Virus record (IMG/VR): IMGVR_UViG_2740892526_000013
Source of the DNA: a virus
Taxonomy: Duplodnaviria; Heunggongvirae; Uroviricota; Caudoviricetes
Strand: one strand, 5' to 3'
Length of the DNA stretch: 8,114 bases
The stretch's first letter is position 1, and every line of letters starts with the position of its first letter. Positions 3,001 through 8,114 of the stretch are shown here, one piece after another. A program made the position numbers.

Positions 3001-6000
3001 TGGATTCGTCAACCAGTGAATCGCTTAATGAGGTCGACAAGCGCATCACTAAATTGGATAAAGAAGGCGGTGAAGCTTTTCTTGCAATGTGGTCAAAAAA
3101 AGCGGGAGTTGATGGTATCACTGCGGGGATCGGGATTGTCGCCGGAAAAGACAGTGAAGGCAGGCCTGTAAGTCAGGTTGCAATTTCTGCGTCGCAGTTG
3201 TTTGTCTTTGACCCGAATAATCCGGATAACACAGCCTATCCGTTTGCGGTATCAGGTGGCAAGGTAGTGATCCCGAAAGCGATGATTTATGACGCGGTGA
3301 TTGAAACACTGGTGTCGCGGAAGGTTGTGGCGGATGAGGTAAAAGCCGGGGTAAGTATCACTTCGCCAGTTATCCGGAGTGCCGTTATTCAGAACGGAAA
3401 CTTTCAGGTTGATTCTCAGGGTAACCTGAATATTGGAGGCCTTTTCAGTGTTACGTCACAAGGGCAACTGACAATTCGTTACTCTAATCAGAATGTAGGA
3501 CTGGTGATCCGCAATGATAAAATTGAGGTTTATGACCAGAATGGACGACTGGCTGTTCGCATAGGCAGATTACGCTGATCAGGAGGTGAGTATTGGAATA
3601 CGGTTTTGCCATTTATAACAGAAATAACGTTAATGTTACGGGCGTGCTGACTCCAGTATTTTTCCTGGACAGATTTACAGCGGAGTCTGGCTCAAAGACG
3701 TACACTAATAAACCCGACGGGAAATCATTGCAGGCTGTATGTTGTTTATTTCCCTGGAATAATGTATTTGCGGATCGGAAAGTACCGAAGATAACCATTA
3801 ATGACAATACGGTGACGTGGTCGAATCTTGAGCAGGGTATGGGATCTTATATTTATACATTCTGGGGATAAGTGTTATGTACGGTTTGAGCATTATGAAG
3901 CCGGATGGCAGCGTATGGATAAGTCCAGGTTTTACGCCGCAGTGTCTGATCAACAAAGGCACCATACCGGCGACTGAAAAGTCTTTTTTTAAAACATCAA
4001 TCCCGTCAGGCAAAAGTTGTTTTTTCTTTATCAGAACAGAGAAGAAGGCCGATGTCATGTACACGCATGAACAGATTGATGGATATCATGCACTAAGGCT
4101 TCATGTAATTGTCAGGGGAACGAACCCTGGTGTTACGACGGTTTATGCTTTCGCGAATATGGTTACTCCACCTTCTGAGTATGGTATCGCCATGTATAAC
4201 CCGGACGGTGAGATGATTTATCATGGCGAAATGATGCTGCTTGACGCGAAGTTAATACCTGTTGATATCAAATTTGAAAAGGACCTTGGATATCCATGCG
4301 CAATCATGCCTGCACTGGTCGGGTATTATAACTGGAAAAGAACTCCTTATGATCGACCGATTTATACCACATCCACTGGTGCTACAGGAAATAAAATATA
4401 TTCCTGTGAGCATTATTCCGGTGGTGCAACATGGGATATTCGAAAGCCGTATATAGATAAGGTCCTGGTTATTAATACATCAGTATATGATTAGTTGAAG
4501 CGAGTCTTTAATATTCATTTAAAATGTCTAAAAAGATGTATTATTAAAAAGTTTAGCGTGTTATCTGAATACAGGATATCTTAAATGAAGAGTATAGCAA
4601 CACTGGTTGTGTGTGCAATCTCCGGGATTGCCTGTGTAAATTTATCTGCACATGCAGCAGAAGGAGAGCATACAATTTCTCTGGGGTATGCGCACTTTCA
4701 GTTTCCGGGACTGAAGGATTTTGTAAAGGATGCGACTGCTCATAACAGGGAGACTTTCAGTCATTTCGTCAACAGAAACTACTTTTCTTCATTGGGCGAA
4801 TATACAGATGGTCGGGTCAGTGGATATGAAGGCAAGGATAAAAATCCACAGGGCATTAATATCAGGTATCGCTACGAGATAACGGATGATTTTGGCGTTA
4901 TCACCTCTTTTACATGGACGCGTTCTCTCACTAACTCACAGACATTTATTGATGTGCAGTCAGCCGATCATACCAGGAAGATTAAGAATCCGGCAGCTTC
5001 TGCCAGAACGGATATCAGGGCGAATTACTGGAGTCTGTTAGCGGGGCCTTCATGGCGGGTTAATCAGTACATGAGTTTATATGCGATGGCAGGGATGGGC
5101 GTTGCTAAAGTTAGCGCTGACCTGAAAATTAAGGACAATATTAACAGTAGTGGCGGATTTTCTGAAAGCAACAGCACGAAAAAAACCTCCCTTGCGTGGG
5201 CTGCAGGTGCACAGTTTAACCTGAATGAGAGTGTTACACTGGATGTGGCTTACGAAGGTTCCGGCTCTGGCGACTGGCGCACGAGTGGCGTTACTGCTGG
5301 CATTGGCCTGAAATTCTGACCTGTATCCGGTAACCGTTTACTACCCGCTGTGATGGCGGGTTTTTTATTGCCCGTACAGGGCAAAAACCGTAAATTATGC
5401 GTGGGTGCCTTTCGGCTGATGGCTGGAGGGTGAACCTGAAGGCCTGATGTGGAAAGGCCCCGAGTCAACTTAACGTTAACCCGAGGCCCTAACACTTCGT
5501 ACCTTAAGCAAGTAGAAGGTTAGCGCCTCTCTGTAAAAGGAGTCAAGCGCTATGTCGCAAAAATCGCTTATCACCGTCACAATTTGCATGACGGTTATCT
5601 TCACCATCTGGATGTTGCACGGTTCACTGTGTGAGTTCCGGCTGAATTTGTGGGGAGCGGAGTTTGCGGCGTTCTTACAGTGTAAGCAGTAGGAAAACCG
5701 CGACGGGGACGAGAGTCCCCGTCAACTGGTTGCTGAGGTTCAGCCGATATGGCACCCGTTTCAGGTGAGAGAATGAACGATAAAATTCTCTGGTATATGC
5801 AGCGTGTTGTGAGAAATTCCCGCAACCCTGAATTTATGAATGAAGTTAAAGACGCCTGCCTTAAAAAGCAGGCGTTTTGTTTTGAGGCACCTGATGGCTT
5901 TTTGGTGCTGCGTTCTGTGCTCAGTGCTGATGGTATCCCTTATGTTCTGGTGTTGCTGGGCGTGTGTACGGGGAGTAACAGCGTTGAGCGTTACCTGCCG

Positions 6001-8114
6001 GAGGTGAAGACATTAACCCATCTGGCTGGCGGACGCTGGGCTGAGTTCCATACGGCAAGGCGGGGATTTATCCGGCTGGGAAAACGACTGGGCTTTGAGC
6101 GAATGCCGGATGATGAGGATGGCTTCATGGTGTTCAGGATAGCGGTCTGACTGCTACAGTTTTCATCATTGTGTTTAAACCAACATTGTAATTCACATTC
6201 TGACCCTGCTCCGGCAGGGTTTTTTGTTATCCAGGGGGCCATTATGGGTGGAAGTAAAGGCGGTGGTGATACCAAAGTAAAACCAACAGCAGCGCAAATA
6301 GCACAGGAAGAAGTGGCCTGGAAAGGGTGGCAGGATTACAAAAATATCCTCCGCCCGGCTGAAGATAACTTCATGGAAAAGGTCGATGACCTGAACAGTG
6401 AGCAGCAGTACGACAATATTGCTGGCACCACAAATCTGGGGTATCAGAAACAGTTTGGCGAAGCACGGAAGGAGCTTGCGGGTAATCTTGCTCAGTCCGG
6501 CGTTGACCCATCCAGTGGTCGTTTTAATGCGGTAATGAATGCGAACCAGAGTGACCAGGTAACCGGGCAGATTGACACAACCACACGGGGGCAGGTATCG
6601 CAGGCAGATAAGTATGTTGCCGGGCTACAGGATGTTGCTGCTCTCGGTTCTGGTCAGAAGGCGGATGCGTTACAGAGTTTTAACTCTCTGGCAGACAGCA
6701 GTCTGGCAAAAGCTAAATCGGATGCACAGGCGGCGTTTACGAAACAGCAGGGGCGAGCCTCTCTTGTTGGCGCTGGTCTGGGTGCGGCAGGTGCATATGC
6801 GATGCATAAGGCTGGCGGTAGCGGAGGAAGTGGCGGTGCTAAAACACCTGGCACCGGCGCTAATGCCATTCAGCATCAGGCTCAGAACTGGAGACTGTAA
6901 TTATGGAGTATGGCAAATACGAAACTCTCGCAAGGGCTGGTTATTCAGGAGCAGACCGCCCACAGGGTGACTGGCAGACGTCAGCAGCGCTGACACGCCA
7001 ACAATACGACGACTGGCGAACCAGATATTTGCCCCGCGTGGCAAGGCTGGCTGACCTTGGGGAGAACAACAGTCTGATGAATGCACAGCTTGCACGGGTG
7101 GGAGGCCTTGCCACTTCCAGTCTCCGTACAGCGCAGATGGCGCAGGATAACCAGATGGCGAGATACGGGGTAAACCGCCCGGATAATCCCGACAGTAATA
7201 CGCTGGGGTTACGTAATGCCCTGGCAATTGCTGGCGCGAAAAATGGTATCCGTGAAGCCGAACAGGATCGCCAGATGAATATTCTGACGGGGGCTTCTGC
7301 ACCGGCAAGACAGAAACTGAGTGTTGGCGGCCAACTGGTGGCAGCGTAAGGGGGCAATATGGGATACGGTTTACTGGATATTGCAAATCAGTCGCGGCGT
7401 GAGGCATTACAGGGAATAAGTGACGCAGACAGACGACGTGAAGAAATTGAGGCTGCGAACAAACAGATGGCGGCGCAACAGAAAGCGCAGAACAAGCAGA
7501 ATATCGGTACGGGCATTGGTACGGGGGCGGCTATTGGCGCATCCGTTGGTGGTCCTGTTGGTGCTGTTGCTGGAGCAGTAATTGGCGGCATTGCTGGTTC
7601 TTTGTTTTAAGGAGTGGTGAATGAGCGGATTTGCACAGGGGTTACTTGCCGGATTCAGCACCGTTGACCAGGCAATGACCCGTCGTAAGGAGCTTGGTCT
7701 GCGTGAAGCACAGCTTGCCCGGCAACAGAAAAATAACGAGCGCGATTTTGAGTTTGCGCAGTCTCAGTTTGAACATAATAAAAACGTTGATCAGCGGAAC
7801 TTTGATTACAGAGCCAAAGTTGACGACCGTAATTATGCACTGAAGGAGAGGGAGTTTAACGCTAACCAGAATTACCGGAATGCGTCACTGGGTATGGAGC
7901 AGCAGCGACTCCAGTTGCAGAAATACAACCAGCGACGGCTTGAGTATAACGATATGATTGCCCATAGCCAGCCACTAATGGAAGCGCTTGGAAAAGCAAT
8001 TGAGGCTGGCGATCAGGAGGCTGCATGTAACCAGGTGAATCATTTGATACCAACGAGGGTTTTAGTGAAAGGAGGTGAAATCACCTGTAAGATACTGAAA
8101 TAAAACAGGTGATG

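What the first reader, a model, noticed from the sequence alone, without database searches (positions are those of the whole stretch)
5726..6226. Single 125-aa gene bracketed by a stem-loop and an intrinsic terminator between the hok-like ORF and the operon
The ORF at 5773-6150 has a good SD, follows the stem-loop at 5702-5723 and ends at an intrinsic terminator (6203-6226) that sits only 18 bp before the next gene start. The combination looks like a self-contained inserted unit. Its position beside a hok-like toxin raises the possibility of a functional link with it or a separate accessory role. The protein has no family I recognise.
Basis: inference. Interest (0 to 1): 0.45.

Follow-up and report, generated by a model that had tools for sequence, protein, structure and literature searches.

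The report
Conserved GNAT-like phage gene with embedded terminator
The 125-aa gene is not an inserted accessory unit but a conserved, lab-dispensable late gene of Shiga-toxin phages (933W L0129 / Sp5 ORF75) that is predicted to fold like an acetyltransferase, and a terminator-shaped hairpin is frozen into its codons 27-37.

Summary
The window is a 933W-type Stx phage (100% identity). ORF 5773-6150 is 933W L0129 = Sp5 ORF75/ECs1237/Z1490, a member of PHROG 610 (function unknown).

Two AlphaFold models (pLDDT 88.6 and 95.1) match only GNAT acyltransferases in the PDB. No sequence profile detects GNAT, and the CoA-loop motif is degenerate.

The "inserted unit" reading fails. In about 100 loci from eight genera plus Aeromonas and metagenomes, the gene always sits directly upstream of the L0130-L0134 ejection/polyvalent-protein block, often 7-8 nt away or overlapping. 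lom and hok occur only in E. coli phages, so they are the insertions.

The upstream stem-loop belongs to the 3' part of the characterised hokW mRNA. The downstream terminator is conserved only in the E. coli/Salmonella/Citrobacter clade.

A published in-frame deletion (Mondal 2016) was not among the mutants reported as defective.

New here: codons 27-37 (5851-5883) encode a GC hairpin plus U-tract whose synonymous sites are nearly invariant (normalised codon entropy 0.11 versus 0.71, p about 3e-6). It persists in relatives with 25-35% protein identity and is probably an intragenic terminator or attenuator.

The protein's biochemical role remains inferred.

The parts
5773..6150 (+). CDS of the 125-aa protein (933W L0129 / Sp5 ORF75 / ECs1237 / Z1490). 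It is a PHROG 610 member with a predicted GNAT-like fold.
   Evidence: start and family; AF2 pLDDT 88.6 and 95.1; PDB Foldseek hits all GNAT; dN/dS 0.116; ORF75/ECs1237/Z1490 mapping.
5763..5771 (+). Shine-Dalgarno-like AGGTGAGAG that belongs to the 125-aa gene itself.
   Evidence: It is retained in E. coli-clade loci where the upstream sequence differs (L036, L037), so homology with the hok cassette ends just 5' of it.
5851..5883 (+). Nucleotide-constrained island in codons 27-37. The hairpin core stem is 5852-5859/5868-5875 with an 8-nt loop, followed by the U-tract TTTTGTTTT. It has the shape of an intrinsic terminator.
   Evidence: -17.8 kcal/mol, z -3.85; normalised codon entropy 0.106 versus 0.713, Mann-Whitney p 2.7e-6; conserved in L096, L100-L103 at 25-35% aa identity; 97.4% of cells paired, 2 compensatory cells.
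6202..6231 (+). Intrinsic terminator between the 125-aa gene and L0130 (stem 6202-6221 plus T-run).
   Evidence: It is conserved, with loop variation and one compensatory C-G to A-T change, in the E. coli and Salmonella/Citrobacter clades only. It is absent where the gap is 7-8 nt.
5702..5723 (+). It is an internal hairpin of the hokW mRNA 3' untranslated region, not a + strand terminator.
   Evidence: No U-tract follows it on the + strand.
5739..5757 (+). Fold-back (fbi-like) element of the hokW mRNA. UCAGCCG...GGCACCC pairs with the mRNA 5' end GGGUGCC...CGGCUGA at 5403-5419. It contains the mis-annotated ATG 5749.
   Evidence: MFE and centroid close the 5403-5757 body; z -6.85; Rfam sok RF01794, 35.6 bits, E 3e-5, below the gathering score of 59.
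5552..5692 (+). hokW toxin ORF, the neighbouring moron. It is not part of the unit.
   Evidence: PF01848 4e-8; phrog_251. Characterised as hokW-sokW in Sp5 (PMC8621323).
6244..6900 (+). L0130 / Sp5 ORF76, the invariable downstream partner and the first of the L0130-L0134 block.
   Evidence: Deleting it markedly reduces infectivity (PMC5155283).

Best explanation
The ORF is a conserved late gene of Sepvirinae-type short-tailed phages. It is the first gene of a fixed block: phrog_610, then L0130, L0131, L0132, L0133 and the giant polyvalent protein L0134.

Shown: its synteny, purifying selection, predicted GNAT-like fold and a published viable deletion.

Inferred for expression: during lytic growth it is expressed as part of the Q-antiterminated late transcript, not from a promoter of its own.

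The bracketing hairpins have separate explanations.
- The upstream hairpin is part of the 3' structure of the neighbouring hokW mRNA. hokW is a moron that, with lom, was inserted into a cargo slot just 5' of the gene's Shine-Dalgarno sequence.
- The downstream terminator and a deeply conserved hairpin plus U-tract inside codons 27-37 are intrinsic-terminator-type elements.
- Inferred: these stop non-antiterminated transcripts, such as those from lysogen-expressed morons. Alternatively or additionally, they attenuate flow into the ejection-protein genes. Q-modified RNA polymerase would read through them.

Inferred for the protein: it is a small acyl-CoA-binding acyltransferase, or a degenerate derivative of one. 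It would act in the producing cell on one of the co-encoded internal/ejection proteins. It improves fitness in natural hosts but is dispensable on E. coli K-12.
For: - Identity: 100% to 933W, Sp5 and other Stx phages.
- Family: phrog_610, E 2e-70. All 134 diverse relatives tested hit phrog_610.
- Synteny: in about 95 loci the gene directly precedes the L0130 homologue. lom, hok and L0127 occur only in the E. coli clade.
- Distant members, including Aeromonas phiARM81mr, keep the order tail-tip gene, phrog_610, four small genes, giant LPD/MuF protein, often with overlapping stop and start codons.
- Coupling: the gap to the next gene is 7-8 nt in Dickeya, Pectobacterium, Serratia, Brenneria and some Yersinia.
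- 186 phage records carry L0129 and 186 carry L0130, with the same organism breakdown.
- dN/dS is 0.116.
- Fold: AF2 gives a1-a2-b-b-b-a3-b-a4-b-b at pLDDT 88.6 and 95.1. The top 50 PDB matches are all GNATs, E 2e-4 to 4e-3, TMq 0.43-0.67. Small viral GNAT-like proteins reach TM 0.83.
- Dispensability: the Sp5 delta-ORF75 in-frame deletion is not among the nine essential mutants or the mutants with altered titres (PMC5155283).
- Intragenic element.
- Ordinary intergenic phage terminators share the same GCCTGC-N8-GCRGGC plus T-run shape.
- hokW mRNA closure.
- No sigma-70-like promoter was found at 5400-5772.
- Antitermination of Stx-phage late transcription is established knowledge (summarised in PMC7547250).
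Against: - No sequence-level GNAT signal: 0 of 134 members hit any Pfam GNAT family. NCBIfam and PDB profile searches were also empty.
- The canonical Q/R-x-x-G-x-G/A CoA loop is not conserved. The 66-70 loop is short and variable, with only an [ND]-[SAG] helix cap kept.
- Foldseek TM-scores are moderate.
- No acetyl-CoA binding, substrate or virion association has been shown.
- Termination at either hairpin has not been measured.
- The delta-ORF75 deletion (window 5758-6138) also removes the intragenic hairpin without a reported phenotype.
- The hairpin core is almost invariant rather than covarying, so a sequence-specific protein-binding site cannot be excluded.
- One distant fusion member (L097) lacks the hairpin.
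Confidence: 0.55

Rival explanations
1. One reading: a self-contained moron-like insertion (promoter, gene, terminator) with an accessory role, possibly functionally linked to the adjacent hok toxin.
For: In 933W-type phages the gene lies next to the lom and hokW morons and ends at a good intrinsic terminator. hokW mRNA is made in lysogens and has no terminator of its own before the ORF, so read-through could express the gene in lysogens.
Against: The gene is present at the same place in every relative, including those with no lom or hok and only a 12-50 nt gap to the tail-tip gene. There is no presence/absence polymorphism in 186 phage records. It is tightly coupled to the next gene in most genera. 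No promoter-like site was found, and there was no PADLOC hit.
Confidence: 0.05
2. The protein is a non-catalytic GNAT-fold scaffold or chaperone. It would aid folding, packaging or stoichiometry of the downstream ejection and polyvalent proteins without binding acyl-CoA.
For: The CoA-loop motif is degenerate and sequence profiles give no GNAT signal. Synteny and translational coupling with L0130 are strict. Neighbouring genes are needed for infectivity or tail formation (PMC5155283).
Against: Conserved basic and small residues on the b5-a4 segment (T94, R96, G98, R101) sit where GNATs contact CoA (inference). The deletion has no reported assembly defect.
Confidence: 0.3
3. The frozen 33-nt island is not a transcription terminator. 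It could be a sequence-specific DNA or RNA binding site (palindrome GCCTGC-N8-GCAGGC), an RNase processing or mRNA-stabilising hairpin, or a recombination junction that borders the cargo slot.
For: The core stem is invariant rather than covarying: three pairs never vary and only two compensatory cells were seen. Loop positions are also partly conserved. The island lies next to a hot spot of module exchange.
Against: The U-tract is also frozen: both Phe codons are TTT in 61 of 61 sequences, against 72-91% TTT at F92, F99 and F108 (and 10% at F121). The orientation is terminator-like only on the + strand. The shape is the same as genuine intergenic terminators.
Confidence: 0.25
4. The protein is a GNAT-family toxin of a toxin-antitoxin pair (TacT/AtaT/GmvT-like) or an anti-defence effector.
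For: TacT, AtaT, KacT and GmvT are among the Foldseek matches.
Against: The neighbours are a tail-tip gene or morons upstream and L0130 downstream, with no adjacent antitoxin-like gene. The protein is 25-50 residues shorter than those toxins. There was no PADLOC hit. Its context is late and structural.
Confidence: 0.03

Closest known systems
GNAT (Gcn5-related N-acetyltransferase) superfamily, e.g. Naa10/Naa50, spermidine acetyltransferase, TacT/AtaT toxins
   Same: The predicted topology a1-a2-b2-b3-b4-a3-b5-a4-b6-b7 is shared. All top PDB structural matches are GNATs. There is a GF-containing a4 segment that resembles motif B.
   Different: No sequence-profile match. The protein is only 125 aa and lacks b1. 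The Q/R-x-x-G-x-G/A loop is not conserved. No activity is known. It is encoded in a virion ejection-protein block.
PHROG phrog_610 (unknown function); Sp5 ORF75 / 933W L0129
   Same: It is this family (E 2e-70, full length). The Sp5 and 933W loci match the queried 1-kb region (window 5400-6400) at 100% DNA identity.
   Different: Nothing differs. The family simply had no fold, context or function annotation.
Morons of lambdoid phages (lom, bor, hokW-sokW): promoter-gene-terminator cassettes in late operons
   Same: It sits in a late operon beside true morons and is followed by an intrinsic terminator.
   Different: It is not variably present and has no detectable promoter. It is the conserved anchor next to the cargo slot, not the cargo.
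Internal late-operon terminators that are read through or partly efficient (lambda tR' with Q; T7 T-phi after gene 10)
   Same: A GC hairpin plus U-tract within a long late transcription unit, upstream of low-copy virion genes. Read-through by antiterminated polymerase is expected.
   Different: It lies inside a coding sequence (codons 27-37), is constrained jointly with the protein sequence, and is conserved across genera. Termination has not been measured.
[quoted passage not shown]
   Same: This explains the upstream stem-loop and the spurious 133-aa start. The 5' end at 5403-5419 pairs with 5739-5757.
   Different: It belongs to the neighbouring gene. It has no terminator of its own before the 125-aa ORF.

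Membership tests
PHROG phrog_610 | Full-length match to the family profile | tested here: met
   E 2.1e-70, residues 1-125 on profile positions 1-124 of 124. All 134 diverse relatives also hit it.
GNAT superfamily | Mixed alpha/beta fold with the b4-a3-b5-a4 core and a V-shaped b4/b5 splay | tested here: met
   Two AF2 models (pLDDT 88.6 and 95.1) show GNAT secondary-structure order without b1. The top 50 Foldseek PDB hits are all GNATs, with TMq up to 0.67. The splay itself was not inspected.
GNAT superfamily | Sequence-profile match to a GNAT family (Pfam clan Acetyltrans) | tested here: not met
   No GNAT family matched in 36 close members at E<=10 or in 134 diverse members at E<=1. NCBIfam and PDB profile searches were empty.
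GNAT superfamily | Acetyl-CoA pyrophosphate loop Q/R-x-x-G-x-G/A between b4 and a3 | tested here: inconclusive
   The loop at 66-70 is TGSNS here and variable in relatives. Only an [ND]-[SAG] cap is kept. Distant members often have [KR]-x-G-N-[AG], one residue short of the motif.
GNAT superfamily | Acyl-CoA-dependent acyl transfer | not testable with these tools
   Needs biochemistry.
Moron (lysogenic-conversion cassette) | Variable presence between otherwise syntenic phages | tested here: not met
   The gene is present in every locus. 186 phage records have L0129 and 186 have L0130, with the same organism breakdown. Only an IS21-disrupted allele was seen (L066).
Moron (lysogenic-conversion cassette) | Own promoter and own terminator | tested here: inconclusive
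   The terminator is present. No sigma-70-like promoter was found in 5400-5772 by a consensus scan, and that scan is weak evidence.
GNAT toxin-antitoxin (TacAT/AtaRT type) | Adjacent small antitoxin gene (RHH type, from established knowledge of these systems) forming a two-gene operon | tested here: not met
   The upstream neighbour is a tail-tip gene or morons, and the downstream neighbour is L0130.
Intrinsic (Rho-independent) terminator, for the 5851-5883 element | GC-rich hairpin immediately followed by a U-tract on the transcribed strand | tested here: met
   8-11 bp stem, -17.8 kcal/mol, then UUUUGUUUU. It is conserved in relatives.
Intrinsic (Rho-independent) terminator, for the 5851-5883 element | RNA 3' ends generated at the site | not testable with these tools
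   Term-seq data for EHEC Sakai exist (GEO GSE143631; PMC7547250) but could not be accessed.

The most novel reading that the evidence does not exclude
The 33-nt hairpin plus U-tract written into codons 27-37 of phrog_610 genes is an ancient, dual-coding regulatory terminator or attenuator. It gates transcription into the ejection-protein and giant polyvalent-protein block.

By stopping non-antiterminated, untranslated transcripts, it would make the slot immediately upstream a safe harbour where lysogen-expressed morons (lom, hokW-sokW, YadA-like adhesin, lipoproteins) can accumulate. hokW may even use it as its missing terminator.
Probability: 0.35. Interest if true: 0.65.

Novelty: new variant of a known kind. 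Interest (0 to 1): 0.4.

Why it matters
Stx phages are medically important, and most of their late genes have no assigned function. This work gives one conserved orphan gene a fold (GNAT-like) and a place (head of the ejection-protein block). It also corrects the gene's start codon and shows that the gene marks the downstream edge of the slot where virulence-related morons (lom, hokW-sokW, an adhesin-like gene) are inserted.

The embedded terminator-shaped element is a clean, testable case of overlapping protein and RNA constraints. If it is functional, it would explain how lysogens keep potentially harmful ejection and polyvalent-protein genes silent next to constitutively transcribed morons.

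Tried and rejected
- Sequence searches of the protein gave nothing beyond phrog_610: Pfam, NCBIfam, PADLOC, and PDB by sequence and by profile.
- T7 gp13 positional analogy (a small gene before the internal-core genes). The only Autographiviridae structural hit, Xylella phage Prado V5Q7V5 (138 aa), matches Prado_30 by length (Prado_52, 139 aa, is the near alternative). Neither gene is in the gp13 slot. The idea was dropped as untested.
- A -1 frameshift at T AAA AAG in the hairpin loop. Rejected because relatives have AAT AAG, AAC AAG, GAA AAG or CAA CAG there, the -1 frame stops after a few codons, and the hairpin encloses the site rather than following it.
- The overlapping ORF 5840-6007 as the cause of the synonymous constraint. 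Rejected because the constraint is confined to 11 codons.
- Codon bias as the cause. Rejected because Lys32 is AAG in 60 of 60 sequences, while most other Lys columns are 81-97% AAA (K79 is the exception at 81% AAG). Ala28 is GCC in 60 of 60.
- Rfam has no family for the hairpin. The BSnc120 and RsaOG hits are far below gathering scores.
- Retrieving DNA of distant members by protein pattern failed. One look-up had no record. Only six distant loci could therefore be read.
- hokW 5'/3' covariation: too little variation to test.
- Literature: nothing on L0129, ECs1237 or Z1490 beyond gene lists and the Mondal deletion. The hokW paper does not map the mRNA 3' end. The virion mass-spectrometry paper gives no per-protein list in the text held.
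Full report
**Identity of the window**

The 1-kb region around the finding is 100% identical to Stx-converting phages 933W, VT2-Sakai/Sp5, Min27 and many others. In 933W the ORF is L0129, annotated as a hypothetical protein from ATG 5749 (133 aa). Its neighbours are:
- Upstream: L0124, L0125 (tail-tip fibre, PF09327), L0126, L0127, lom (PF06316), and a hok-family ORF (PF01848, phrog_251).
- Downstream: L0130-L0133 (phrog_611, 596, 594, 601) and the giant protein L0134.

**Check of the observation**

All stated features exist.
- ORF 5773-6150 is preceded by AGGTGAGAG.
- The hairpin at 5702-5723 has a 9-bp stem (-21.9 kcal/mol, z -4.95).
- The hairpin at 6202-6221 followed by a T-run is a textbook terminator (-16 kcal/mol, z -4.27).
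- The next gene starts at 6244.

The short start is the right one. Homologues from Salmonella, Citrobacter, Yersinia, Serratia, Pectobacterium, Dickeya and Brenneria are 119-125 aa and align from residue 1. The PHROG profile is 124 positions long. ATG 5749 lies inside an RNA element of the neighbouring hok mRNA. Median dN/dS among 275 sequence pairs is 0.116, so the protein is under purifying selection.

**What the protein is**

Sequence methods give only phrog_610, whose function is unknown. There were no Pfam, NCBIfam, PADLOC or PDB sequence hits, even when all 36 close or 134 diverse members were scanned one by one. An exhaustive profile search found 211 clusters at 50% identity with E<=1e-3, nearly all 115-140 aa.

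AlphaFold2 gave the same topology with the close alignment (pLDDT 88.6) and the diverse alignment (pLDDT 95.1, pTM 0.86). The order is two helices, three strands, helix, strand, helix, two strands. This is the GNAT order without b1. For both models the 50 best PDB matches are all GNAT acyltransferases or GNAT-like CoA-binding domains (E 2e-4 to 4e-3, TMq 0.43-0.67). They include Naa10/50, spermidine acetyltransferase, AtaT/TacT/GmvT and the ICL2 C-terminal domain. Among predicted viral structures the best matches are uncharacterised small phage proteins (TM up to 0.83) and annotated phage acetyltransferases.

Membership as an active enzyme is open.
- The Q/R-x-x-G-x-G/A loop is not conserved.
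- A b5-a4 segment (T94, R96, G98, F99, R101, G107, F108) is invariant or nearly so in the close family and is echoed in the broad consensus T-x-R-K-G-F-x-R-x-A.

**Context: the gene is core, and the neighbours are the insertions**

I ran tblastn with eight window proteins on about 95 loci recovered through the protein. In every one, the gene is followed directly by the L0130 and L0131 homologues and preceded, at a variable distance, by the L0124 and L0125 homologues. L0127, lom and hok occur only in the E. coli Stx-phage clade.

In Dickeya the gene starts 12 nt after the tail-tip gene and ends 8 nt before the L0130 homologue. Distant members with 25-40% identity keep the same order, often with overlapping stop and start codons. 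These include a 256-aa fusion, metagenomic contigs and Aeromonas phage phiARM81mr. The order is capsid, SU10-type adaptor, 530-aa protein, tail tip, phrog_610, four small genes, and a protein of more than 2,300 aa with LPD, MuF_C, ART or InPase domains.

In GenBank phages, 186 records carry L0129 and 186 carry L0130, with identical organism breakdown.

The space between the tail-tip gene and phrog_610 is a cargo slot. Its contents vary:
- Nothing.
- L0126/L0127-like genes.
- lom plus hokW-sokW.
- A YadA-anchor protein.
- Lipoprotein-like ORFs.
- An IS3 element.

Homology between hok-bearing and hok-less E. coli-clade loci begins at GGTGAGAG, the gene's own Shine-Dalgarno sequence. One contig has the gene split by an IS21-family element.

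**Published genetics**

Mondal et al. 2016 (PMC5155283) deleted each unknown Sp5 gene in frame. ORF75 (ECs1237, 133 aa) is this gene. The primers show that the deletion spans window 5758-6138. Delta-ORF75 is not among the nine essential mutants, nor among the mutants with reduced titres (ORF64, ORF76) or increased titres. ORF76 (L0130) is needed for efficient infection. ORF70, 71, 79 and 80 are needed for tail formation. The gene is therefore dispensable on K-12 under laboratory conditions.

**The upstream stem-loop**

The adjacent hok ORF is the experimentally characterised hokW-sokW type I toxin-antitoxin system of Sp5. Its mRNA is present in lysogens (PMC8621323). Folding 5403-5890 gives a structure with z -6.85. 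In it, the 5' end (GGGUGCC...CGGCUGA, 5403-5419) pairs with 5739-5757 (UCAGCCG...GGCACCC) and closes the whole hok mRNA body. This is the tac/fbi arrangement known from R1 hok (established knowledge). The 5702-5723 hairpin is an internal 3'-UTR hairpin with no U-tract. An Rfam sok-family match at 5403-5565 (35.6 bits, below the gathering score of 59) agrees. After the fold-back element there is no terminator before the 125-aa ORF.

**The downstream terminator**

It is conserved in the E. coli and Salmonella/Citrobacter clades, where the gaps are 59-94 nt. Loop variants occur, along with one compensatory C-G to A-T stem change. It is absent in genera where the genes are 7-8 nt apart. Some Yersinia prophages have a 230-255 nt spacer with no detectable terminator.

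Codons 27-37 (DACLKKQAFCF, window 5851-5883) spell ACGCCTGC-CTTAAAAA-GCAGGCGT followed by TTTGTTTT (-17.8 kcal/mol, z -3.85).

Across 61 distinct coding sequences the synonymous positions here are almost frozen:
- GCC 60/60
- TGC 59/60
- AAG 60/60
- CAG 61/61
- GCG 59/61
- TTT 61/61, at both Phe codons

Equally conserved residues elsewhere use 2-6 codons freely. Mean normalised codon entropy is 0.106 inside the island against 0.713 outside (Mann-Whitney p 2.7e-6). It is the lowest of all 10-column windows of conserved degenerate columns. In the 41 sequences below 75% identity to the reference the values are 0.067 against 0.752.

The element is present at the homologous position in relatives with 25-35% protein identity. 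The base of the stem changes in a compensatory way:
- ATGCCTGC...GCGGGCAT in L096.
- AAGCCTGC...GCAGGCTT in L100.
- Also present in L101, L102 and Aeromonas L103.

It is absent from the fusion member L097.

On 24 distinct sequences, 97.4% of cells pair, against 15-50% when the partner is slid. Two cells show double changes, several show G-U-compatible single changes, and five cells are disruptive. Three of the eight pairs never vary, so covariation support is thin.

The same GCCTGC-N8-GCRGGC plus T-run shape is used by ordinary intergenic terminators in other phage contigs. About 39 of 134 family representatives carry the AC....[QR]AF peptide that is compatible with this exact hairpin.

**Mechanism**

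Shown:
- Core synteny and coupling to the L0130-L0134 block.
- Purifying selection.
- A predicted GNAT-like fold.
- A viable published deletion.
- Nucleotide-level constraint on a hairpin plus U-tract.
- The hokW mRNA structure abutting the gene.

Inferred:
- The gene is expressed from the Q-antiterminated late transcript.
- The intragenic and downstream terminators stop or attenuate non-antiterminated transcripts coming from the cargo slot in lysogens. hokW mRNA, which lacks a terminator of its own, is one such transcript.
- The protein is an acyl-CoA-binding modifier, or a degenerate GNAT-fold helper, of the co-encoded ejection proteins.

The deletion data argue that neither the protein nor the intragenic hairpin is essential in K-12. 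The 6203-6226 terminator remained in that mutant.

**Comparison and novelty**

The protein is already catalogued (L0129, ORF75, phrog_610) and is known to be non-essential. Four results are new:
- The fold assignment.
- The corrected start codon.
- The demonstration that the gene anchors the downstream edge of a moron slot rather than being a moron itself.
- The embedded, deeply conserved terminator-shaped element.

I rate it a new variant of known kinds (a divergent GNAT-like family and an internal late-operon terminator) and of moderate interest.

Noticed in passing
window 5403-5757 (with 5749-5751): The hokW mRNA folds into a closed form in which 5403-5419 pairs with 5739-5757. The GenBank start codon of L0129 (ATG 5749) lies inside this fold-back element. 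No terminator separates the hokW mRNA from the 125-aa ORF.
   Followed up: partly
L036 4693-5889; L038 2876-4059; L008 5721-5963; L013 5731-5985; L006 5388-6035: The slot between the tail-tip gene and the phrog_610 gene holds different cargo in different prophages. Examples are a 398-aa signal-peptide protein with a YadA-like C-terminal anchor, an IS3-type element, small lipoprotein-like ORFs and a 215-aa ORF. Dickeya and Pectobacterium types have none.
   Followed up: partly
L066 6220-8650: An IS21-family element (IstA 499 aa, IstB 251 aa, minus strand) splits the L0129 homologue after about codon 73.
   Followed up: partly
L034 about 6378-6405: This contig shows no L0130 homologue between the L0129 and L0131 homologues, which suggests a deletion.
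   Followed up: no
L111, L122, L139, L161, L162, L188 (IMG/VR contigs): The exact 20-mer of the intragenic hairpin (GCCTGCCGTAAAAAGCAGGC) also occurs in contigs where it is not within a phrog_610-like ORF. There it looks like an intergenic terminator and is followed by [CT]TTTTTTTATG.
   Followed up: no
window 7359-7610 and locus L001 10518 onward: L0132 is an 83-aa glycine-zipper protein (PF13441, 25.7 bits, just below the cut-off). In relatives the giant downstream protein carries LPD, MuF_C, ART-PolyVal, InPase or RadC domains, so it is a polyvalent protein.
   Followed up: no
window 5343-5361: An intrinsic terminator (7-8 bp stem plus T6) lies directly after lom and about 40 nt before the hokW mRNA 5' end.
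   Followed up: no
window 507-530, minus strand: A terminator-like GGGGGAGCATATTGCTCCCC plus T6 on the minus strand, upstream of L0124. It surfaced only through a chance Rfam RsaOG match.
   Followed up: no
Yersinia-type loci L003, L072, L075, L078 (gap after the gene): A 230-255 nt spacer lies between the phrog_610 gene and the L0130 homologue. It has no ORF and no terminator detected by my scan.
   Followed up: no
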